Source of the DNA: a virus
Lineage: Duplodnaviria; Caudoviricetes
IMG/VR virus record: IMGVR_UViG_3300050015_000366
Location: 1 to 53,761 of that record
DNA: 53,761 bases
Strand: one strand, 5' to 3'
Shown: positions 16,924-34,961 of the stretch, piece by piece
How the letters are laid out: each line of letters opens with the position of its first letter
How positions within the stretch are numbered: the stretch's first letter is position 1
Notes under the pieces: model-generated
What the model was told of the DNA's origin: nothing
The model's input: the letters and a program-made list of their open reading frames with translations, nothing else
Database searches by the model: none
Program-made: the position numbers and the translations under genes

Positions 16924-18645
16924 ATGACGTTCCACCTCAGCGACCACTCGGCGCCCGTCGACCTCTCGGCTTTGATCGACACGCGACTGCTCGTTCAGGC
17001 CAACAGCGGCGGCGGCAAGAGCTGGTGCTTGCGGCGCATCCTCGAGCAGACGCACGGGCGGGCGCAGCACCTGGTGATCGACCCAGAGGGCGAGTTTGCC
17101 AGCCTCCGGGAGCGGTTCGACTACGTGCTCGCCGCGCGCCAGGGCGGGGACACGGCCGCAGACCCGCGCTCCGCAAAGCTCCTGGCTGAACGCCTGCTCG
17201 AGCTCGGGGCCTCGGCCGTCCTCGACATCTACGAGCTGAAGGCGCACGAGCGCATCCGGTTCGTGCGCGCCTTCCTCGAGGCGCTGGTCGATGCCCCGAA
17301 GAAGCTCTGGCATCCGGCGCTGGTCGTGGTCGACGAGGCGCACGTCTACTGCCCGCAGGTAGGCGAGGCCGAGAGCGCCGGCGCCGTCATTGACCTGGCG
17401 ACGCGCGGCCGCAAGCGCGGGTTCTGCGCCATCCTCGCTACGCAGCGCCTCTCGAAGCTCCACAAGGACGCCGCGGCGGAGTGCAACAACAAGCTGATCG
17501 GGCGCACTGGCCTCGACGTCGACATGAAGCGCGCCGGCGACGAGCTCGGGTTTACCAAGGACCGGCTCCACGAGCTGCGCGAGCTGGACGCGGGGCACTT
17601 CTTCGCGTTCGGGCCGGCCATCTCCAGGAGCGTAACGAAGGTCCACGTCGGCGGCGTGCAGACGACGCACCCGAAGACGGGCAGCCGGATCGCGTTCACC
17701 GCGCCGCCACCCACAGAGAAGGTCCGCGCGCTGCTTCCGAAGCTGGCCGACCTTCCGGCGGAAGCCGAGGCCCGCCAGAAGACGGTCGAGGACCTCAAGC
17801 GTGAGCTGGCCACGGCGCGCCGCGAGCTGACGATCGCCAGGCAAGCCGCCCCGGCTCCGGCGCCGCCGAAGGTCGAGCGGATCGAGGTTCCGGTTCTGGT
17901 GGACGAAGATCGGGCAGGGCTCCGGGAAGTCGTCCAGTCGCTTCGATCGACCGCGGAAACACTGGGCGCTCGTGCGGACCAAATCGAGGGGGCGCTCCGC
18001 CGAGTAGGCCAGGCGCCGATGGAGCCGCGCGGACTGCGCCCGATGCCGAACGCGACGCGGCAAATCCAGCAGCACGTGGACGGCATGATTGCTCGCGCCG
18101 CGCGGAAGCCTGTGACGCCGTCGCTGCCGCGGCGAGCCGCCGAGTCGAACGGCAATCTCACCGGCCCCGAGCAGCGCATCCTCGACGCGATTGCGTGGCT
18201 CGCGGCGATCGGCGTCTCGGAACCCGAGCAGGCCGCCGTCGCCTTCCTCGCCGGCTACACCTACGGCGGCGGCGCCTTCAACAACCCGCGCGGCTCGCTC
18301 CGCACGAGGGGCCTAGTCGACTACCGGCCAGGGGAGCGCATCGTCCTGACGGTTGATGGTGCCGCCTCGGCCAACGCGCCCGACGCGCCGCTGACCGCCG
18401 AGGAGCTGCAGGCCCGCGTGCTGGCGCGCCTGCCGGGCCCGGAGCAGCGCCTCCTGCGGCCGCTCCTGGCCGCCTACCCTGACGCGCTCAGCAACGAGGA
18501 CCTGGCCGGCCAGGCGAACTACACGCCGAACGCAGGGGCGTTCAACAACCCGAGGGGGCGCCTGCGAAGCCTCGGCCTCATCGACTACCCGCGGCCCGGC
18601 TACGTCGTCGCGAAGCCGCTGCTGTTCCTGGAGGAACGCTCGTGA
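16924..18645 (+). CDS. HerA/FtsK-superfamily ATPase with tandem C-terminal winged-helix repeats
   Basis: ANSGGGKS, VIDPEGE, VVDEAH, GRKRG, LATQR; GAFNNPRG-x-LR-x2-GL-x-DY occurs twice. Confidence 0.85.
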   Translation: MTFHLSDHSAPVDLSALIDTRLLVQANSGGGKSWCLRRILEQTHGRAQHLVIDPEGEFASLRERFDYVLAARQGGDTAADPRSAKLLAERLLELGASAVLDIYELKAHERIRFVRAFLEALVDAPKKLWHPALVVVDEAHVYCPQVGEAESAGAVIDLATRGRKRGFCAILATQRLSKLHKDAAAECNNKLIGRTGLDVDMKRAGDELGFTKDRLHELRELDAGHFFAFGPAISRSVTKVHVGGVQTTHPKTGSRIAFTAPPPTEKVRALLPKLADLPAEAEARQKTVEDLKRELATARRELTIARQAAPAPAPPKVERIEVPVLVDEDRAGLREVVQSLRSTAETLGARADQIEGALRRVGQAPMEPRGLRPMPNATRQIQQHVDGMIARAARKPVTPSLPRRAAESNGNLTGPEQRILDAIAWLAAIGVSEPEQAAVAFLAGYTYGGGAFNNPRGSLRTRGLVDYRPGERIVLTVDGAASANAPDAPLTAEELQARVLARLPGPEQRLLRPLLAAYPDALSNEDLAGQANYTPNAGAFNNPRGRLRSLGLIDYPRPGYVVAKPLLFLEERS

Positions 18646-20849
18646 GCGCCTACGCCCTCCGGCCCTATCAGCGTTCCGCCGCCGACGCCGGCGTGGCCTA
18701 CTTGACCAACCCGCGGCTGCGCGACCGGAACGGCATCATCGTCGCGCCGACGGGGTCAGGGAAATCGCTACTGGTCGCCAGCATCGCGACGGCGCTGCCG
18801 GGGCCGTGCATCGTCCTGCAGCCGACCAAGGAGATCCTCGAGCAGAACGCCGCGAAGCTCACAGCCTACGGCTTTCCGCCGGCCCTGTACTCGGCCAGCG
18901 TAGGCCGCAAGGAGATCGGGCGCATCACGCTCGCGACGTTCGGCAGCGTGGTCAAGCAGGCGGAGGCGTTCCGGGACTTCTCGTTCGTGCTCATCGATGA
19001 GTGCTTTGTCGCCGGAACGCTTGTTGATGGTCGCCCAATCGAGAGCGTTCTTCCCGGAGACGTCGTCACGACATACGACCACGAACGGGGGCAGGTCTCG
19101 TCCGGTCGCGTGCTTTCGACGATGAAGCGGCTGAGGCCGGAACGGCTCTGCCGCGTTACGGCTAGTGGCCAGCAAGTCTCGTGTACGCCAAATCATCCGT
19201 TTTTCGTCGAGGGCCACGGCTACACGCGAGCCGACAGCCTTCAGATCGGAGATCGCCTTGCCTACTGGAGTCTACCAACGACCACCGCTCCCGATAGTGC
19301 CGTGCACCCACTGCGGAGCGGACCTGAAGATCAAGAACGGGGCCCAGCATTCCTATTATCGGAAGACCGGGAGGGCTTTTCACCCGGAATGCGGGCGAAG
19401 ACAGGTCTCGGAGAACACGTCCCGGATTATGTCTGGGAGGACGCCGACCCTCAAGGCCAGGGCCGCGTCCAGCGAGCGGATGAAGCGCCGGAATCCGATG
19501 TCCAACCCGCTGATTCGCGCGAAGGTCTCCGGGTCACTGCGCAAGATCGGACACCGTCCGCGCGTTCGGGGCGGGAACGGGTGTCCGATGCCAGAGGCAC
19601 AGCGGTTGCTGCTGGCCCGACTCGGAGAGGGATGGGCCCTGGAATTCGTGGTGAAAACAGGACGTCGAGCCGAGGGGTATCCGCATTGCTACAAGATCGA
19701 CCTGGCGAACCCGGCCCTGATGATCGCGGTCGAGATCGACGGGGGGAGCCACAGTCTATCGAGGCGAGCGGAGGACGAACGGAAAACGGCGTTCTTGACC
19801 TCGCTCGGGTGGAGAGTGTGGAGGTTCTCGAACGAGAGCGTCCTAACCTCTTTGGAGCTGGTTGCGCGGGAGATTACGTTTACAACCTCGAAGTAGCCGA
19901 GCACAACAACTACTTCGCCAACGGTCTCCTCGTCCACAACTGCCACCAGGCCGTCTCGCCGAAGGGCGGCATGGTCAAGGCCTTCCTCGACGTGCTGCAG
20001 CACGCGAGAATTCTCGGATTCACAGCCACGCCGTTCCGGCTCGCGAGCAACTCCTGGGGCTCGACGCTGCGCTTCCTGACCCGGACCCGGCCTCGCATCT
20101 TCCGCGACGTCGTGCACGTCACGCAGATCGCCGAGCTGGTGCGCGGCGGCTTCCTATGCCCCGTCCAGTACGACGTGCGGCCGCTCATCAAACGGGACCG
20201 CCTTCGCTACAACAGCACAGGCGGCGACTACACCGACGCGTCGGTCCAGGCGGCCTTCGCGGAAGTCGGCTTCCCGGGCCAGCTGCGCCGAGGGGTCCAG
20301 CGCGTGCTCGACAGCGGCCGGCAGCACGCCCTGGTGTTCACCCGGTTCGTCGACGAGGCGCAGCAACTCGCGGCGGCGATCCCCGGCGCGGCGGTCGTCA
20401 CTGGCGAGACGCCAGCCGGCGAGCGGGCCCGGATTCTGAACGACTTCAAGGCTGGGCGGATCCGAGTCGTGGCGAACTGCGCTGTCCTACTCGTGGGCTT
20501 CGACTTCCCCGAGCTGGACGCCGTCGTGCTGGCCTCGCCGACCGTCTCCCTGGCCCGCTACTACCAGAGCGTCGGCCGCGGTATTCGCCCGGCGCCGGGC
20601 AAGCGTGATGCCCTGGTCGTGGACCTAGTGGGGACCGTCGAGCAGTTCGGCCACGTCGAGGATCTCGTGCTCGAGCCGGGCGGTGTGACAGGTGAGAAGT
20701 GGGTGGTCAAGAGCAGGGGGCGAGAGTTGACGAATTGCTACTACGGCGACCAGGCGAGCCAGGAGAAGCGGAAGAAGTCGGCGGAGTTCTGGAGCGGGCG
20801 GCGGGGTGGACAGGCGAGGTCACAGGCGGCGGACAACGGACGATTTTAG
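18642..20849 (+). CDS. SF2 (DExH) helicase containing an intein
   Basis: LRPYQ, APTGSGKS, DE|CH split by the intein, GFTATP, GFDFP, YYQSVGRGIR. Confidence 0.92.
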   Translation: MSAYALRPYQRSAADAGVAYLTNPRLRDRNGIIVAPTGSGKSLLVASIATALPGPCIVLQPTKEILEQNAAKLTAYGFPPALYSASVGRKEIGRITLATFGSVVKQAEAFRDFSFVLIDECFVAGTLVDGRPIESVLPGDVVTTYDHERGQVSSGRVLSTMKRLRPERLCRVTASGQQVSCTPNHPFFVEGHGYTRADSLQIGDRLAYWSLPTTTAPDSAVHPLRSGPEDQERGPAFLLSEDREGFSPGMRAKTGLGEHVPDYVWEDADPQGQGRVQRADEAPESDVQPADSREGLRVTAQDRTPSARSGRERVSDARGTAVAAGPTRRGMGPGIRGENRTSSRGVSALLQDRPGEPGPDDRGRDRRGEPQSIEASGGRTENGVLDLARVESVEVLERERPNLFGAGCAGDYVYNLEVAEHNNYFANGLLVHNCHQAVSPKGGMVKAFLDVLQHARILGFTATPFRLASNSWGSTLRFLTRTRPRIFRDVVHVTQIAELVRGGFLCPVQYDVRPLIKRDRLRYNSTGGDYTDASVQAAFAEVGFPGQLRRGVQRVLDSGRQHALVFTRFVDEAQQLAAAIPGAAVVTGETPAGERARILNDFKAGRIRVVANCAVLLVGFDFPELDAVVLASPTVSLARYYQSVGRGIRPAPGKRDALVVDLVGTVEQFGHVEDLVLEPGGVTGEKWVVKSRGRELTNCYYGDQASQEKRKKSAEFWSGRRGGQARSQAADNGRF
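19002..19940 (+). mobile_element. intein (313 aa) inserted in the helicase DE/CH motif
   Basis: Starts CFVAGT, block B CTPNHPF, ends VYNLEV...NYFANGLLVHN followed by Cys+1; removal restores DECH. Confidence 0.95.
19258..19896 (+). CDS. Vsr/DUF559-like endonuclease overprinted in the +1 frame inside the helicase intein
   Basis: CTHC, NUMOD3-like RMKRRNPM...RAKVS, EAQRLL...YKIDLA...IAVEIDGGSH...DERKTAFLTSLGWRVWRFSN; GGAG SD before TTG 19258 (ORF open from 19165). Confidence 0.85.
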   Translation: MPTGVYQRPPLPIVPCTHCGADLKIKNGAQHSYYRKTGRAFHPECGRRQVSENTSRIMSGRTPTLKARAASSERMKRRNPMSNPLIRAKVSGSLRKIGHRPRVRGGNGCPMPEAQRLLLARLGEGWALEFVVKTGRRAEGYPHCYKIDLANPALMIAVEIDGGSHSLSRRAEDERKTAFLTSLGWRVWRFSNESVLTSLELVAREITFTTSK

Positions 20850-30029: not shown

Positions 30030-30071
30030 AACCCATTGCGCCGCGCCTCCCCAGCCTCTACGGTGGAGGCC

Positions 30072-31991
30072 GTGCCGCTCGATCTGCGCGTCGGTCCCGT
30101 CCACCTGCACGTCGGCCGCGAGGCCCGGCAGGCGGAGCGATCGCCCGCACTCGCGGTCAATGCGGAGGTAGACCATGACCAGGTAGCCACGAAAGCCTCG
30201 CTCCCCTCAATGGCCGTGCCCAACGTCGAAGGCACGGCTCAGATTCGCGCCGCCGCCGCACAACCGAAGACGCCCTCGGGCTTTCCGATCCCGCCAGCCA
30301 CCGGCCAGCCTCCCGACCCAGGACAGACCCCGAACGCGAGCGACGCCAGCCGCCTCCTAGGCCCGATTCGCTACCAGTTCCCCTACGGCACCAACGCCAC
30401 CTTCACGCCGCGCGGCACACTGCGCCCGTTCGACCAGTTGCGCCGGATCGCCGACGCCTGCGCCGAGGTGCGGTTCTGCATCGAGACGCGCAAGGACCAG
30501 ATCTGCTCGCTCTCCTGGGACATCACGCCGAAGGACAGCAAGGCGACCGGGCAGAGCCTCGACGGCGAGATCAAGGCGGCGCGCGCGTTCTTCTCGGCGC
30601 CGGATCCTGGTCAGCCGCTCTCGACGTGGTTCCGCCAGGCGATCGAAGAGATCCTGGTCACCGACGCCCTGGCCATCTACCGCCGCCGCTCGCGCGGCGG
30701 AGACCTGCTCGGCCTCGAGCTCGTCGACGGCGCGACCTTCAAGTGCCAACTCGCCCAGGACGGACGGACGCCGAAGCCGCCGCTCGTGGCCTACCGCCAG
30801 ATCATCTACGGGCAGCCCGTCGCCGGCGGCGACTGCACGATCGACGACCTGATCTACCGCCCGCGCACCGTGCGGACGTGGACGCCCTACGGCATGAGCC
30901 CGACCGAGGCGGTCATGCTCGCCGTGACGGCCACGCTCAATCGCCAGGCCTTCGACGTCCTGCAATACACCGAGGGCACGCTGCCCGAGTCGTGGGCGAC
31001 GGTGCCGGAGTCCTGGCAGCCGAAGGACATCGACGAGTTCCAGACGTTCTTCGATTCCATGATGTCGGGGAACCTCACCCAGCGCAGCCGCGTGAAGTTC
31101 ATGCCGGCGGGCTCGAAGATCGAGTCGATGCGCCTGCGCGACTTTCAGGCCGGCTGGTACGAATGGTGGTTGAAGCTGATCGCGGCCGCCTTCGCCGTGC
31201 CGCCGTCCGAGCTGGGGTTCACGAACGACGTGAACCGAGCCACGTCGAAGAGCCAGGAGGACGTGGCCTTCCGCCGCGGCGTACGCCCGCTCGGGTCGTT
31301 CCTCAAAGAAATCTTCGACGACGTGCTCGCACGAGACCTGCGGCTTCCGCACCTCGAGTTCGTGTGGAAGAACACCGAGACCGAGGACCGCGCGAAGCAG
31401 GCGGCCGTCGACGAGATCCGCGTGCGCACCGGGATCGACAGCATCGACGAGATCCGCGTGCGCGACGGCCTGCCGATGATCGGCATGGGGAACGCCATCT
31501 TCACGCCGACCGGGCCGCTGTTCGTCGAGGATCTGATCGCGGACGTCGACGACGACCCGACGACCACGGAGACGAAGCCGGCTCCGGCCGCGCCCGCAAC
31601 GGCCACGCCGAAACCGTCCGCGCCGGCGCCGGAGCCAACGCCGCACACGGAAGGCGAAGCGCTGGACGGCCTCGAGGGCCAGGCCAAGGCGCTGGCGGCC
31701 GACCTCCGGCATTGGCGCACCGTGGCGCTCAAGGCGGCCAAGGCCGGCGCGCCCTGCAAGCCGTTCGTGAGCGCCGCGATCCCGCACGACGTCCACCACG
31801 AGATCGAGACAGCCCTGAAGGCCGCGACGACGCCGGCAGCCGTGCGCGCGCTGTTCGCCGAGATCGAGAAGCGCAAGCCGACGCTGCTCGAGCAGACGCG
31901 GATGCGTCGCAGGGTGCGCACAATGGCGGCCGACATTTTCCGGGCGCAAGGCGCCGCCCTGGTCGCGCACCTCGAGGAGCCCGCGTCATGA
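30072..31991 (+). CDS. portal protein
   Basis: LELVDGAT, YRQ, YGMSPTE, IAAAFAVPPSELG, IDEIRVRDGLP; GGAGG SD before GTG 30072 (alternative ATG 30210). Confidence 0.88.
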   Translation: MPLDLRVGPVHLHVGREARQAERSPALAVNAEVDHDQVATKASLPSMAVPNVEGTAQIRAAAAQPKTPSGFPIPPATGQPPDPGQTPNASDASRLLGPIRYQFPYGTNATFTPRGTLRPFDQLRRIADACAEVRFCIETRKDQICSLSWDITPKDSKATGQSLDGEIKAARAFFSAPDPGQPLSTWFRQAIEEILVTDALAIYRRRSRGGDLLGLELVDGATFKCQLAQDGRTPKPPLVAYRQIIYGQPVAGGDCTIDDLIYRPRTVRTWTPYGMSPTEAVMLAVTATLNRQAFDVLQYTEGTLPESWATVPESWQPKDIDEFQTFFDSMMSGNLTQRSRVKFMPAGSKIESMRLRDFQAGWYEWWLKLIAAAFAVPPSELGFTNDVNRATSKSQEDVAFRRGVRPLGSFLKEIFDDVLARDLRLPHLEFVWKNTETEDRAKQAAVDEIRVRTGIDSIDEIRVRDGLPMIGMGNAIFTPTGPLFVEDLIADVDDDPTTTETKPAPAAPATATPKPSAPAPEPTPHTEGEALDGLEGQAKALAADLRHWRTVALKAAKAGAPCKPFVSAAIPHDVHHEIETALKAATTPAAVRALFAEIEKRKPTLLEQTRMRRRVRTMAADIFRAQGAALVAHLEEPAS

Positions 31992-33514
31992 CGCCCGAGC
32001 AGCTCCGCCACCTGCTCGTGACGTTCCCGTGGGACAAGTGGGACGCGGAGTGGAAGCAAAAGTACGAGCCGCTCCACCGCGAGCTGCTCACCCTGGGCGG
32101 CGCCGCGGGCGCGACCGAGGCCGGGGGCGCGTTCGCGATCGACGACCCGATCGTGTCGGCGCTCAGCGAGCGCTACGTCGGCGAGCTCATCACGGAGCTC
32201 CAAGGCACGACGCGCGACGCGGTCTCCGCGCTCATCGAACGGACGATTGAAGACGGCCAGGCGGCGGCCTCTGGCGCGACGCCGTTCGAGCTGGGCACGG
32301 CGATCCGGGACGCGGTGCGCGAAGAGTTCTCCGGCTACGAGCGCTGGCGCGCGGACCGGATCGCCCGCACGGAATGCCTCCTACCTGAGACGCAGGTTGA
32401 CGCTGCTGTGGTGCGGGCAGCTCACAGACGGCCGTATGAAGGTCAGGTGGTCGAGGTCGAGACTGCCTCTGGCCGCCAGTTCACCGCAACCCCGAATCAC
32501 CCGATGCTCACGAGCTCTGGATGGCTTCCGTCTGGTCTCCTGGCAGAAGGCCACGATCTCGTCTGCGACAGTTTCCAAGAGCACCATGGTGCGACGGGCG
32601 ATCAGGATGTACAGCGACACCCATCCACGATCGCGCAGGTATTTGATGCGGTCGAGGCAGTAGGGGTCACGGAACGGCGTCGTTGTGCCGATCCAGACTT
32701 CCACGGCGACGGGCGGAAGGGCTATGTCGATGTTGCGTGTCCCAACGGGACGCTGACGCTCGGCAGATTCTCCGCGATCGACCAGCCACTGATGGAGTCG
32801 TTCTTCGCCCCATCCGATCAGGCGCGTGCGCGTTTCTGCGGCCGATGTAAACGCCTTCTCCCGATTGAGCAGACGTTGTGCCTCTGCGGCGTTTCTCGTG
32901 GCGACACCGGCCTCGCGCAGCCTGCGCTCGATAGCAGTGTTCGAGACGCCAAACCGCGCACAGAGGTCGACGACGGACTCGCCGTTCATGTAGCGCCTGA
33001 CGATTTGGTCAGAGGGCAGTCCCCGCAGGGTCCGCGGATGCTCGCCGCGAGCGAACCTGGCCAGGGCAGCATCGGACAGGCTGCGTTGAACGCCGGCTCG
33101 ACGAACGACATCAACCACCCAGTCAGCCTTGACGCCAAGCTCTCTGGCTATAGCCGTCGAGCCGAGCCCGGACAAATACAACTTGATCGCGTTCTCTCGG
33201 TGCGCATCAGGCAGTGGTCTGGACATGTGTTCAACCTCACGACCAGTGACGGTTACTTCGCCATTGCGGGTGGATTATACAGCGGGAACACGGCGATAGT
33301 CTACAACCAAGGCGCAGCGCTCGCCTACCACCAGAACGGGATCACGCACGTGGTGATCAGCGACGGACAGGGCGAGAACGGATGCGAGGAGTGCGAAGCC
33401 GTCGACGGCGAGATCTGGACCATCGAAGAGTTCCTGGCCGAACCGACTGCCCACCCGAACTGCACCAGGTCGGCGAGCCCGGCCGAGGCTGACGAGGCCG
33501 AAGAGGCCGCATAG
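31988..33514 (+). CDS. MuF/SPP1 gp7-like minor head protein containing an intein
   Basis: RADRIARTE|T split by the intein; C-terminal CEEC...HPNC-x-R; directly after the portal. Confidence 0.88.
   Translation: MTPEQLRHLLVTFPWDKWDAEWKQKYEPLHRELLTLGGAAGATEAGGAFAIDDPIVSALSERYVGELITELQGTTRDAVSALIERTIEDGQAAASGATPFELGTAIRDAVREEFSGYERWRADRIARTECLLPETQVDAAVVRAAHRRPYEGQVVEVETASGRQFTATPNHPMLTSSGWLPSGLLAEGHDLVCDSFQEHHGATGDQDVQRHPSTIAQVFDAVEAVGVTERRRCADPDFHGDGRKGYVDVACPNGTLTLGRFSAIDQPLMESFFAPSDQARARFCGRCKRLLPIEQTLCLCGVSRGDTGLAQPALDSSVRDAKPRTEVDDGLAVHVAPDDLVRGQSPQGPRMLAASEPGQGSIGQAALNAGSTNDINHPVSLDAKLSGYSRRAEPGQIQLDRVLSVRIRQWSGHVFNLTTSDGYFAIAGGLYSGNTAIVYNQGAALAYHQNGITHVVISDGQGENGCEECEAVDGEIWTIEEFLAEPTAHPNCTRSASPAEADEAEEAA
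32375..33289 (+). mobile_element. intein (305 aa) inserted in the MuF IARTE/T motif
   Basis: Starts CLLPET, block B TATPNHPMLT-x-x-GW, ends HVFNLTT...YSGN followed by Thr+1; removal restores IARTETA. Confidence 0.9.
32381..33226 (-). CDS. tandem-HTH plus Vsr/DUF559-like endonuclease encoded antisense inside the MuF intein
   Basis: Two HTH repeats (LYLSGLGSTAIARELGV; RYMNGESVVDLCARFGVS), then GEERL...Q-x-PVG-x-RNIDIA...VAVEV...RIKYLRDRGW; GAGGT SD before ATG. Confidence 0.82.
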   Translation of the reverse strand: MSRPLPDAHRENAIKLYLSGLGSTAIARELGVKADWVVDVVRRAGVQRSLSDAALARFARGEHPRTLRGLPSDQIVRRYMNGESVVDLCARFGVSNTAIERRLREAGVATRNAAEAQRLLNREKAFTSAAETRTRLIGWGEERLHQWLVDRGESAERQRPVGTRNIDIALPPVAVEVWIGTTTPFRDPYCLDRIKYLRDRGWVSLYILIARRTMVLLETVADEIVAFCQETRRKPSRAREHRVIRGCGELAARGSLDLDHLTFIRPSVSCPHHSSVNLRLR

Positions 33515-33524
33515 GAGCACGCAC

Positions 33525-34961
33525 ATGGCAGGACATCTCGAGCACGCAAAGTCGCAGACCGCGCCCGTCGAGCCGCCCGTTCGGCTGCTGATTCCAATCG
33601 TGAAGGTGGACGCGACGAAGCGCCTGGTGCGCGGCGTCGCGACGGCTGAAGTGCTCGACAGCCAGGGCGAGATCGTGGACTACGAGTCCGCGAAGGACGC
33701 CTTCTCGCGCTGGCGCGGCAATGTGCGCGAGATGCACCAGCCGAAGGCCGTCGGCAAGCGGACGGACGTCACCTTCGACGACGCGACGAAGCAGATCGTG
33801 GTCGAGAGCTATATCAGCAAGGGCGCGCCGGACACGTGGGAGAAGGTCCAGGACGGCACGCTCTCGATGTACAGCATCGGCGGGACCGCACGCGAACGCC
33901 GGCCGGAGAAGTGCGGCGATGCCGTCGCATCGCGCCTGTTCGTCAAGGACCTCACCGAGCTCTCGCTCGTCGACAACGGCGCCTGCCCGGTCGCGACCTT
34001 CGACCTGGTCAAGGCCGTCGATGGCCAGCCGACCGAGGTCCAGCCCGAGGATCCGTCCGGCGAGGCGGAGCCGGCCGCCGCGGACACCACGAAGCAGGCC
34101 GCGGACGTCGTGCCTGAACCCTGGGACCTGACGCGCGCCCTCGCCGTGATCGCGCAGCTCGAGGAGCTCCTGGCCGACGAGGCCTGGTCCGCGCGCTATT
34201 CCAGCGATCCGGCCGTGGCCGTGGCCGAGCGGGCCCAGGTGGAGATGCTGCGAACCGCCATCGAGGCCGTCGTGGCGTTCTTCCTCGCCGAGCACGATGA
34301 GCAGTTCACGCTGCCGGCCGCGGGTGACGCCGAGGCGGTCGCGATGTTCGCCCGTGCGGTCATTGCCAAGGCTGGCGCGCGGAACAGCAAGAAGGACCTC
34401 GAAACGATTCAGAAGGTGCACGACCACGCCGTCACGCTCGGCGCGACGTGTGCCACCACGGAAAAGCTGGCGACGCAGGTTGCCACCCCGGCCGCGCTTC
34501 CTCCCGCGGCCCCGGCTCCCGAGCCGACGACACCCGCGTCGCCAGCCCCTCTCGTGAAGGCGGAGGACAGCCCGGTCGTCAAGGCCCTCCAGACCGACCT
34601 CGCACAGGCCACGGACGCGCTCGTGAAGACCACGGCCACGCTCACGGAGCAGCAGGCGACGATCGCCGCGCAAGCGGGATCGATCGCGAAGCTCGAGGCG
34701 TGGGTCGAGACCTTCAAGCAGCAGCCGTTGCCGGGCGGCCCGGTCGCGCGGGTCGTGACGGTCGAGAAGACGCTGGGCGGACCGCCGGCTGGCGGCGGCG
34801 CCGAGATCGACCCCGCCGCGATGGAGGCCGCGTTCAAGGCCCTCATCGCCGCGGCCCCGACGGCGGTCGAGAAGGACCGGATCGTCCAGCAGTACATCAA
34901 GTGGCAGCAGGACAGCGGCGTGACCGCGGTGAAGCTCGAGCGTCGAGCCCACCTGCAGTAA
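33525..34961 (+). CDS. prohead protease fused to scaffold
   Basis: RLVRGVAT, DSQGEIVD, VREMH, YSIGG, LTELSLVD; coiled-coil C-terminus. Confidence 0.85.
   Translation: MAGHLEHAKSQTAPVEPPVRLLIPIVKVDATKRLVRGVATAEVLDSQGEIVDYESAKDAFSRWRGNVREMHQPKAVGKRTDVTFDDATKQIVVESYISKGAPDTWEKVQDGTLSMYSIGGTARERRPEKCGDAVASRLFVKDLTELSLVDNGACPVATFDLVKAVDGQPTEVQPEDPSGEAEPAAADTTKQAADVVPEPWDLTRALAVIAQLEELLADEAWSARYSSDPAVAVAERAQVEMLRTAIEAVVAFFLAEHDEQFTLPAAGDAEAVAMFARAVIAKAGARNSKKDLETIQKVHDHAVTLGATCATTEKLATQVATPAALPPAAPAPEPTTPASPAPLVKAEDSPVVKALQTDLAQATDALVKTTATLTEQQATIAAQAGSIAKLEAWVETFKQQPLPGGPVARVVTVEKTLGGPPAGGGAEIDPAAMEAAFKALIAAAPTAVEKDRIVQQYIKWQQDSGVTAVKLERRAHLQ

What the first reader, a model, noticed from the sequence alone, without database searches (positions are those of the whole stretch)
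32375..33289. MuF intein contains a complete endonuclease gene on its antisense strand
Seen: the 305-aa intein has normal splicing blocks but its middle shows no LAGLIDADG or HNH motif. The opposite strand (33226->32381, codon-for-codon in register) encodes 281 aa with its own SD (GAGGT, then ATG), two HTH repeats and a Vsr/DUF559-like nuclease core (E...Q-x-PVG-x-RNIDIA...VAVEV...YLRDRGW). Sense DFHGDG is the exact reverse complement of antisense PVAVEV. The antisense ORF also runs through the N-terminal splicing blocks and stops at intein residue 3. Established: intein homing endonucleases are normally in-frame domains of the precursor. Inference: this intein's mobility enzyme is a separate antisense gene, which could be expressed independently of the late head operon, and about 280 codons are dual-coding.
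Basis: partly seen in the sequence, partly recalled or inferred. Interest (0 to 1): 0.93.

Follow-up and report, generated by a model that had tools for sequence, protein, structure and literature searches.

The report
Intein with antisense homing endonuclease gene
A self-splicing protein insert (intein) in a phage head-assembly gene carries its DNA-cutting mobility enzyme as a separate gene on the opposite DNA strand, an arrangement already reported in a 2025 preprint.

Summary

In this GC-rich window alone the open antisense frame could be chance. Family-wide it is not:
- 46 IMG/VR loci were found, and 36 of 37 distinct inteins keep the antisense frame intact.
- The central codons evolve as antisense-coding.
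- The antisense ATG is the block-F His codon (CAT in 32 of 35).
- The antisense stop is the Leu-2 codon (CTA/TTA in 26 of 31).

A wastewater contig carries the same gene minus exactly 915 nt, which is an intein-free allele.

The architecture is not new. Gosselin et al. (bioRxiv 2025) describe antisense VSR-like endonucleases in actinophage minor-capsid inteins, and antisense LAGLIDADG cases date from 1998.

What this work adds:
- relatives in Salmonella, Pseudomonas, Aggregatibacter and Vibrio phages;
- overlap with the N-terminal splicing lobe;
- codon-level evidence that some stretches (sense DFHGDG opposite the nuclease AVE strand; block B opposite antisense RVIRG) are selected in both frames.

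Expression and cleavage are untested, and the Vsr general-base His is absent.

The parts
31988..33514 (+). MuF-like head morphogenesis / minor capsid gene (precursor with intein). It lies between the portal gene and the head maturation protease gene.
   Evidence: ORF and translation. Pfam Phage_Mu_F is only sub-threshold (18.6 bits). PHROG matches are head protein 15127 (E 6.5e-27) and head morphogenesis 2468. Neighbours are portal (Phage_portal, 60.6 bits) and protease (Peptidase_S78_2, 26.8 bits).
32375..33289 (+). Class-1 intein of 305 codons: C1, block B T39-P-N-H42, block F G-H284-V-F-N-L, and C-terminal G-N305 followed by Thr.
   Evidence: Sequence. Invariant columns in 37 sense inteins. 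HINT fold. A related contig lacks exactly these 915 nt.
32375..32569 (+). N-terminal HINT lobe (intein residues 1-65). The 3' end of the antisense ORF overlaps it.
   Evidence: AF2 pLDDT 90-96. The sense frame is the more conserved one here. Within block B the sense synonymous sites are restricted so that the antisense residues are kept.
32612..32779 (+). Sense-frame conserved segment (intein residues about 80-135), predicted as helix plus three strands. It lies opposite the nuclease core.
   Evidence: AF2 block pLDDT 69-87, with H86-96, E98-104, E116-122 and E127-129. Nearly invariant P83, F90, R101, D108, F109-D112, G113, L127 and G130.
32696..32713 (+). Sense motif D-F-H-G-D-G, the reverse complement of antisense P-V-A-V-E-V, which holds the putative catalytic Glu176. 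These codons are constrained in both frames.
   Evidence: Antisense codons are GCC in 36 of 36, GTG in 35 of 36 and GAA in 35 of 36. Variation falls only at sense third positions. The same holds in 11 further or distant loci.
32888..33160 (+). Sense-frame linker (intein residues 172-262), predicted disordered and unconserved in the sense frame. It is the mirror of the antisense HTH region.
   Evidence: AF2 pLDDT below 50 over 172-262. Antisense identity exceeds sense identity here.
33176..33289 (+). C-terminal HINT lobe (intein residues 268-305, blocks F and G).
   Evidence: AF2 pLDDT 89-97. Sense-only selection: 3567 sense-synonymous against 360 antisense-synonymous pair differences.
32381..33226 (-). 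Antisense endonuclease gene of 281 aa (coordinates include the stop).
   Evidence: ORF. 9 close homologues. 2203 cluster representatives at E<=1e-3. 46 viral loci. Codon test.
33098..33208 (-). HTH module 1 (aa 7-43).
32912..33013 (-). HTH module 2 (aa 72-105).
   Evidence: Pfam HTH_28 over aa 74-104, 33.6 bits. A profile of the family matches the tandem-HTH protein 2lvs_A at E 9e-8.
32462..32824 (-). Vsr-like nuclease domain (aa 135-255). E141, Q158, N165, D167 and E176 are invariant.
33224..33226 (-). Antisense start codon ATG, the reverse complement of the block-F His284 codon CAT.
   Evidence: CAT is used in 32 of 35 His codons at this site, against 87 of 311 extein His codons.
33235..33238 (-). 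Shine-Dalgarno-like GAGG, 8 nt before the ATG. It is built from the sense Asn-Leu codons of block F.
   Evidence: Sequence. AGG or GAGG stands at the same place in most family members.
33274..33303 (-). Promoter-like site TAGACT-18-TATAAT. The -10 hexamer lies in the block-G codons and the -35 in the C-extein.
   Evidence: Consensus scan: 10 of 12 matches, 1 site found against 0.3 expected. A TANNNT stands within the last 7 intein codons in 21 of 37.
32381..32383 (-). Antisense stop codon TAG, the reverse complement of intein Leu3 CTA.
   Evidence: Sequence. In 26 of 37 relatives the stop is the complement of intein codon 2 (CTA or TTA).

Best explanation
This is a mobile class-1 intein in the MuF-like head morphogenesis gene of a GC-rich phage. 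Its homing endonuclease is not a domain of the intein polypeptide. It is a separate 281-aa protein, made of two helix-turn-helix modules and a Vsr-like nuclease, and it is encoded on the complementary strand in codon register.

The antisense gene starts at the complement of the block-F His codon and ends at the complement of intein codon 3 (codon 2 in most relatives), so it travels with the intein as one unit.

Inferred mechanism: the late head operon is translated through the intein. The two HINT lobes (residues 1-65 and 268-305) splice the insert out. The part that mirrors the HTH region is a disordered loop.

Also inferred: the antisense gene is transcribed on its own, possibly from a TATAAT-type site inside the block-G codons. 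Its product would cut intein-free MuF alleles near IARTE|T, and recombinational repair in a co-infection would copy the intein in.

Shown here:
- the anatomy of both reading frames;
- the predicted fold of both products;
- family-wide purifying selection on the antisense frame;
- selection on both frames in two overlapped stretches;
- the existence of an intein-free allele.

Inferred only: transcription, translation, cleavage and homing.
For: Anatomy.

Antisense product:
- Pfam HTH_28 and HTH_23 pass their cut-offs.
- The AF2 model has mean pLDDT 88.6.
- hhalign to a Pfam-positive DUF559 ORF gives E 2e-5.

Sense product:
- Residues 172-262 are disordered.

Family:
- 46 IMG/VR loci were found, and in 45 the in-register sense frame is open across the match.
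- 36 of 37 distinct inteins have no internal antisense stop.
- About 96 antisense stops are expected from extein codon usage and 13 are seen.

Codon test on 32 sequences:
- Over antisense aa 1-215, differences synonymous only in the antisense frame number 20,342 pair-cells, against 7,744 synonymous only in the sense frame.
- In the non-overlapped C-terminal lobe the counts are 360 against 3,567.

Start and stop:
- His is CAT in 32 of 35, against 87 of 311 in the exteins.
- Leu-2 is CTA or TTA in 26 of 31, against 81 of 1289 in the exteins.

Double constraint.

Intein-free allele: a 9866-nt contig of run X5 joins 32367 to 33302 with 19 other letters between. The net loss is 915 nt and the frame reads IARTE|TATVYN.

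Cultured phages with the same unannotated arrangement.
Against: - There is no evidence of an antisense transcript or protein. No RNA run is listed.
- In this window alone the open antisense frame is what its codon usage predicts (P=1).
- Pfam finds no nuclease family in the antisense protein at E<=1.
- The Vsr / I-Bth0305I general-base His has no counterpart in this clade. By the hhalign register it falls at Thr182 or Thr183, so catalysis may differ or be lost.
- The -10-like hexamer is present in only 21 of 37, and the window's site is a bare consensus match.
- Pair counts count related sequences, not independent events. The central ratio (2.6:1) is weaker than the sense control (10:1).
- AF2 confidence in overlapped parts could partly reflect constraints imposed by the other strand.
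- The intein-free contig may show loss or an allele never invaded, not homing. The X3 and X4 contigs are short.
Confidence: 0.75

Rival explanations
1. The antisense protein is real and under selection, but it is not a double-strand-cutting homing enzyme. It would be a site-specific DNA binder or nickase, or a regulator or exclusion factor that benefits the phage or the intein by another route. It has lost the Vsr-type general base.
For: The His that I-Bth0305I (H213) and Vsr (H69) need (PMC3239194, passages read) has no conserved counterpart in the window's clade. T, S, N or F stands there, although several distant members have His just before the conserved Pro. Pfam DUF559 and Vsr models do not match.
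Against: E141, Q158, N165, D167 and E176 are invariant in 29 diverse members, as expected of a live metal site. The element sits at two or more MuF sites and in varied exteins. An intein-free allele exists. Both fit mobility.
Confidence: 0.15
2. The antisense ORF is a decaying relic of a former invasion. The intein is now inherited vertically and the ORF is neither expressed nor needed.
For: One family member (L010) has two internal antisense stops while its sense frame stays open, so decay does occur. The 2025 preprint reports vertical-looking patterns for some VSR-like cases (section 15).
Against: 36 of 37 are intact. The start and stop codons are held against codon bias. The antisense frame shows purifying selection at 28-54% protein identity.
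Confidence: 0.06
3. The antisense ORF is a chance open frame of the kind common opposite GC-rich genes. The true endonuclease, if there is one, is in the sense frame.
For: In this window no extein codon is one that would give an antisense stop.
Against: Homologues stay open in inteins of 43-49% GC. HTH families match above their cut-offs. The fold is confident and Vsr-like. The sense middle is disordered and has no family match.
Confidence: 0.01

Closest known systems
Full inteins with an anti-sense VSR-like homing endonuclease in actinobacteriophages (Gosselin, Arsenault & Gogarten, bioRxiv 10.1101/2025.01.02.630785)
   Different: - The window's clade sits at another MuF site (RTE|T, not HPx|CRC).
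[quoted passage not shown] Here the ORF starts in block F and runs through the whole N-terminal lobe.
- In the parts I read, the preprint gives no codon-level test of the VSR-like cases, and it calls them rare.
- I could not see its supplementary tables, which list the phages and clusters.
Inteins with out-of-frame or antisense LAGLIDADG endonucleases (Synechocystis/cyanobacterial dnaX; Gorbalenya 1998 as cited in the two preprints; Phillips et al., bioRxiv 10.64898/2026.09.14.751524)
   Same: The endonuclease is read in a frame other than the intein's. Frame-dependent selection shows the alternative frame is the one that is conserved (sections 14 and 17 read).
   Different: The nuclease family differs (LAGLIDADG) and the host gene is cellular. 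For dnaX the 2026 text speaks of a +2 ORF. No interlocking with splicing blocks is reported in the sections I read.
Fractured genes: split inteins with a free-standing Vsr-like or GIY-YIG endonuclease gene between the halves (Dassa et al. 2009, PMC2677866)
   Same: Phage genes, a Vsr-like endonuclease with N-terminal DNA-binding modules, and its own expression signals brought along. The endonuclease 3' end overlaps the downstream intein half by 6-69 bp (passages read).
   Different: There the host gene is broken into two ORFs and the endonuclease lies between them. Here the sense frame is unbroken in 45 of 46 loci and the overlap is almost total.
I-Bth0305I and the EDxHD family (Taylor et al. 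2011, PMC3239194; PDB 3R3P)
   Different: I-Bth0305I is encoded in a group I intron on the sense strand. Its His213 general base is not conserved in the window's clade. No sequence-level match to 3R3P was found by profile search.

Membership tests
Intein (class 1, HINT splicing domain) | N-terminal nucleophile (Cys or Ser at position 1) | tested here: met
   C1 is invariant in 37 of 37 sense inteins. The window has TGC at 32375.
Intein (class 1, HINT splicing domain) | Block B TxxH | tested here: met
   T39-P-N-H42. P40, N41, H42 and P43 are invariant.
Intein (class 1, HINT splicing domain) | C-terminal Asn followed by Cys, Ser or Thr, with exact in-frame boundaries | tested here: met
   N305 is invariant and is followed by Thr. 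A related contig lacks exactly 915 nt and reads IARTE|TATVYN.
Intein (class 1, HINT splicing domain) | HINT fold | tested here: met
Intein (class 1, HINT splicing domain) | Pfam Intein_splicing above the gathering score | tested here: not met
   21.8 bits against a cut-off of 35.8, and 19-31 bits in 9 of 9 relatives. The long insert and short N-lobe lower the score. The fold and the motifs decide.
Intein (class 1, HINT splicing domain) | Penultimate His (common but not obligatory; that it is not obligatory is recalled) | tested here: not met
   Gly304. Most relatives end in GN, SN or AN, and only L043-L046 end in HN.
Intein (class 1, HINT splicing domain) | Protein splicing activity | not testable with these tools
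   Inferred only. MuF sits in a head operon, and the sense frame is kept open in 45 of 46 loci.
Vsr-like / EDxHD homing endonucleases (I-Bth0305I; DUF559 superfamily) | Vsr-type nuclease fold | tested here: met
Vsr-like / EDxHD homing endonucleases (I-Bth0305I; DUF559 superfamily) | Acidic catalytic residues (E, D, and the extra Glu at Vsr Phe62) | tested here: met
   E141, D167 and E176 (plus Q158 and N165) are invariant in 29 members. The register comes from hhalign to a DUF559 ORF. The correspondence to Vsr numbering is inferred from the papers' text, not from a printed structural alignment.
Vsr-like / EDxHD homing endonucleases (I-Bth0305I; DUF559 superfamily) | General-base His (Vsr H69 / I-Bth0305I H213) | tested here: not met
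   The His of DUF559 'EIDGGSH' aligns with Thr182 or Thr183. The position is T, S, N or F in the window's clade and His in some distant members.
Vsr-like / EDxHD homing endonucleases (I-Bth0305I; DUF559 superfamily) | Sequence-profile membership (Pfam DUF559 or Vsr) | tested here: not met
   No nuclease family matches at E<=1, for the whole protein or for aa 126-281. Only remote homology is seen (hhalign E 2e-5, 77% probability).
Vsr-like / EDxHD homing endonucleases (I-Bth0305I; DUF559 superfamily) | N-terminal modular DNA-binding region | tested here: met
   Two HTH modules.
Vsr-like / EDxHD homing endonucleases (I-Bth0305I; DUF559 superfamily) | Cleavage of the element-free allele | not testable with these tools
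   The candidate target is known from the intein-free contig.
Non-canonical intein with antisense VSR-like endonuclease (Gosselin et al. 2025) | Contiguous intein with the endonuclease ORF wholly inside it on the antisense strand | tested here: met
Non-canonical intein with antisense VSR-like endonuclease (Gosselin et al. 2025) | Host is an actinobacteriophage | not testable with these tools
   The window is an unnamed IMG/VR record. Relatives occur in Gordonia phages and a Tsukamurella genome, but also in phages of Proteobacteria.
Fractured gene with split intein (Dassa et al. 2009) | Host gene and intein broken into two ORFs around the endonuclease gene | tested here: not met
   The sense frame is unbroken across the intein in the window and in 45 of 46 loci.

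The most novel reading that the evidence does not exclude
The intein and its antisense endonuclease are interlocked codon by codon, and parts of the same DNA encode two functional protein segments on opposite strands.

- The nuclease's catalytic strand (A-V-E) is the mirror of a sense motif (F-H-G-D-G) that is itself under sense-frame selection.
- The nuclease's C-terminal strands (R-V-I-R-G) are the mirror of splicing block B (T-P-N-H-P). The Pro codons used there are only those whose complement still reads Arg.
- The gene's start and stop codons are the block-F His and Leu-2 codons.

Such an interlock would make it hard for the endonuclease to decay without harming splicing of an essential head protein. 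That could explain why this architecture persists and is widespread, from actinophages to Salmonella and Pseudomonas phages.
Probability: 0.35. Interest if true: 0.7.

Novelty: new member of a known kind. Interest (0 to 1): 0.45.

Why it matters
The case shows that a homing endonuclease can be hidden on the antisense strand of an annotated structural gene. Gene callers and curators miss it. In GenBank records of Salmonella, Gordonia and Pseudomonas phages, only the head gene is annotated over it.

The family data support the 2025 preprint's guess that such inteins are commoner than reported:
- 46 IMG/VR loci;
- 76 cultured-phage records;
- 831 protein clusters at E<=1e-10, most carrying the mirror image of intein block B (130 of 156 examined).

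The codon-level double constraint is a clean natural example of antiparallel overlapping genes. It gives direct handles for experiments: changes that are silent on one strand and disruptive on the other.

Tried and rejected
I used the search for related loci instead.
- blastn of the region against GenBank phages found nothing. tblastn did.
- A profile of the antisense family against PDB sequences found only HTH proteins and no nuclease. The nuclease link came from structure and from hhalign.
- The search for related loci with the short-form alignment A4 failed because no stretch was conserved enough. I did not repeat it. The intein context of distant members rests on three cultured-phage loci and on a motif count.
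- No RNA holder is listed for the stretch, so nothing can be said about expression.
- Foldseek on the sense model gave no match at E<=0.001. VIA-align gave the HINT matches.
- The terminator scan found none.
- I considered that the sense segment 80-135 might complete the HINT fold. The tools give no coordinates or residue alignment, so this stays open.
- I considered a nucleotide-level reason (a regulatory or RNA element) for the invariant run under DFHGDG. The only variable positions are sense third positions, which favours protein-level selection but does not exclude the other reading.
- I did not run the 'longer' protein search. Among the best 150 of 2203 representatives, searched without a length limit, none over 600 aa carries the nuclease core.
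They may already include the Gordonia phages.
Full report
THE OBSERVATION

The window is an IMG/VR virus record of 53.7 kb. A head gene cluster runs on the + strand:
- portal, 30036-31991 (Pfam Phage_portal, 60.6 bits);
- a MuF-like gene, 31988-33514;
- a head maturation protease, 33525-34961 (Peptidase_S78_2, 26.8 bits; PHROG 9427);
- a probable capsid gene.

The MuF assignment of the window's extein is weak in Pfam (Phage_Mu_F, 18.6 bits against a cut-off of 29.6). It is backed by three things: PHROG head and head-morphogenesis families, gene order, and the annotation of related phage genes.

Inside this gene a 305-codon insert (32375-33289) has the hallmarks of a class-1 intein. These are C1, block B T-P-N-H, block F G-H-V-F-N-L, and a terminal G-N followed by Thr.

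On the opposite strand, in codon register, lies a 281-aa ORF (33226->32381). GAGG stands 8 nt before its ATG. Its stop is the complement of intein codon 3. Sense DFHGDG is the exact complement of antisense PVAVEV.

IS IT MORE THAN CHANCE?

In this register an antisense stop arises only from sense TTA, CTA or TCA. The window's extein uses none of these in 203 codons. So in this window alone the open frame proves nothing. The family decides.

- The antisense protein has 9 close homologues at 42-54% identity.
- It has 2203 cluster representatives at E<=1e-3, of which 831 are at E<=1e-10.
- A scan of IMG/VR gave 46 loci at 28-54% identity.
- In 45 of these 46 the in-register opposite frame is open across the whole match. 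The exception, L042, is cut by a contig end.
- After dropping L042 and merging identical copies, 37 distinct inteins remain. Thirty-six have no internal antisense stop. L010 has two.
- Some of these inteins have only 43-49% GC.
- From each locus's extein codon usage about 96 stop-giving codons are expected in the overlapped parts. Thirteen are seen, and eleven of them are the ORF's own stop. The sequences are related, so the formal product of probabilities (1e-42) overstates the case.

WHICH FRAME IS SELECTED?

Each codon of one frame faces exactly one codon of the other, so the two frames can be compared codon by codon. I used 32 sequences, leaving out L010 and the four most distant, L043-L046.

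| Region | Differences synonymous only in antisense (pair-cells) | Differences synonymous only in sense (pair-cells) |
|---|---|---|
| Antisense aa 1-215 | 20,342 | 7,744 |
| C-terminal splicing lobe (upstream of the antisense ATG) | 360 | 3,567 |
| Overlapped N-terminal lobe | 3,539 | 6,158 |

- Over antisense aa 1-215, nucleotide diversity peaks at antisense third positions.
- The C-terminal lobe serves as the internal control for sense-only coding.
- The N-terminal lobe is sense-favoured.
- These are pair counts, not independent events.

THE TWO PRODUCTS

Antisense protein:
- Pfam HTH_28 and HTH_23 pass their cut-offs.
- AF2 with 29 family members gives mean pLDDT 88.6. The model has two three-helix modules and an alpha/beta domain over aa 135-255.
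- The top Foldseek hit is 3r3p_A (E 0.021).
- E141, Q158, N165, D167 and E176 are invariant in 29 diverse members.
- The general-base His of Vsr and I-Bth0305I is missing. In an hhalign alignment to a DUF559 ORF it faces Thr182 or Thr183.
- Pfam sees no nuclease family.

Sense intein (AF2 with 37 members):
- Confident HINT lobes at residues 1-65 and 268-305.
- A moderately confident helix-plus-three-strand segment at about 80-135.
- Disorder over 172-262.

INTERLOCKING OF THE TWO GENES

- The antisense ATG is the complement of the block-F His codon. That His is CAT in 32 of 35 cases, against 87 of 311 His codons in the exteins.
- In 26 of 37 inteins the antisense stop is the complement of intein codon 2. 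That codon is CTA or TTA in 26 of 31 Leu, against 81 of 1289 Leu codons in the exteins.
- The SD-like AGG comes from the block-F Asn-Leu codons.
- In the window a promoter-like TAGACT-18-TATAAT lies on the minus strand at 33303-33274. Its -10 hexamer is in the block-G codons. A TANNNT stands within the last seven intein codons in 21 of 37. This is a lead, not evidence of transcription.

SELECTION ON BOTH FRAMES

Two places show selection on both frames.

1. Under sense D-F-H-G-D-G:
   - The antisense codons are GCC (36 of 36), GTG (35 of 36) and GAA (35 of 36).
   - The flanking antisense codons toggle only GTC/ATC. That is silent for sense Asp.
   - The next codon is NCC with a free first base. 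That is silent for sense Gly.
   - The same holds in 11 further or distant loci, including phages of Salmonella, Gordonia and Pseudomonas.

2. In block B, where the sense synonymous sites are restricted so as to keep the antisense residues:
   - Thr39 is ACC in 35 of 36.
   - Pro40 is only CCG or CCT, the two Pro codons whose complements read Arg.
   - Asn41 is AAT in 34 of 36.
   - His42 is CAC in 36 of 36.
   - In the non-overlapped block F the Gly, Val and Thr codons vary freely.

So the antisense C-terminal strands and the sense DFHGDG segment both appear to be real, selected protein. What the DFHGDG segment does is unexplained.

MOBILITY

- A 9866-nt wastewater contig (run X5) matches the window on both sides at about 95-96% identity. 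It joins 32367 to 33302 with 19 other letters between. The net loss is 915 nt and the frame reads IARTE|TATVYN. This fixes the intein boundaries and shows an intein-free allele in a close relative.
This is weak support for transfer between diverged hosts.
- The family occupies at least two MuF sites. One is RTE|T or RVE|T, near Pfam profile position 40. The other is HPx|CRC, at the end of the domain.
- The family also sits in varied exteins, including polyvalent MuF proteins.

WHAT IS KNOWN

Gosselin, Arsenault & Gogarten (bioRxiv 10.1101/2025.01.02.630785; I read the abstract, sections 8 and 15, and passages of 19 and 28) report the following:
- actinophage inteins with VSR-like endonucleases on the antisense strand, minor capsid proteins among the hosts;
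- the view that such inteins are rare but probably under-detected;
- that antisense LAGLIDADG inteins go back to Gorbalenya 1998 and Gogarten 2002.

A 2026 preprint (10.64898/2026.09.14.751524; abstract and sections 14 and 17 read) shows frame-dependent selection for the out-of-frame dnaX endonuclease.

Dassa et al. 2009 (PMC2677866, passages) and Taylor et al. 2011 (PMC3239194, passages) define the Vsr-like/EDxHD homing endonucleases.

The finding is therefore a new member of a known kind.

- A much wider distribution. tblastn finds 76 GenBank phage records: Salmonella 40, Pseudomonas 14, Gordonia 11, and Aggregatibacter/Haemophilus, Vibrio and others.
- In the three records I opened, the match lies unannotated inside the head gene.
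- Four bacterial or MAG contigs also hold the arrangement.
- 130 of 156 homologous proteins carry the mirror image of block B at the right distance from the nuclease core, against 5 of 156 after shuffling.
- The start/stop interlock, the overlap with the splicing lobe, and the double-frame selection described above.

VERDICT

The feature is real and well supported as a selected antisense gene. Its function as a homing enzyme is inferred. The concept is already in print as a preprint.

Noticed in passing
window 19002-19940 (intein in the helicase gene 18642-20849); ORF 19165-19896 (+): A second intein in the same genome holds a 243-aa ORF in the +1 frame of the same strand. That ORF matches Pfam DUF559 (E 1e-10, 41.9 bits against a cut-off of 20.6) and aligns with the MuF antisense nuclease family (hhalign E 2e-5). 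[quoted passage not shown]
   Followed up: partly
window 32368-32374 and 33290-33301 against the X5 contig: The 19 nt flanking the insertion site differ far more between the intein-bearing and the intein-free allele than the rest of the gene does (about 4-5%). The differences are mostly silent. This could reflect co-conversion or target-site immunity.
   Followed up: no
L010:1116-2024: This is the one family member whose antisense ORF has two internal stops while the sense intein frame stays open. It looks like an endonuclease in decay.
   Followed up: no
window 32375-32818 (sense): PHROG 15127 ('head protein') matches the sense frame of intein residues 1-148 at E 6.5e-27. So this PHROG profile contains intein sequence, not head-protein sequence.
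   Followed up: no
L021:5647-9072, L046:4243-8157: Some intein-bearing open frames are long polyvalent proteins. They combine MuF with 2'-5' RNA ligase/LigT or NUDIX domains.
   Followed up: no
L035, L040, L046 (inteins of 364-370 codons): Three family members carry about 55-65 extra codons in the sense-disordered part. The extra codons fall in the N-terminal region of the antisense protein.
   Followed up: no
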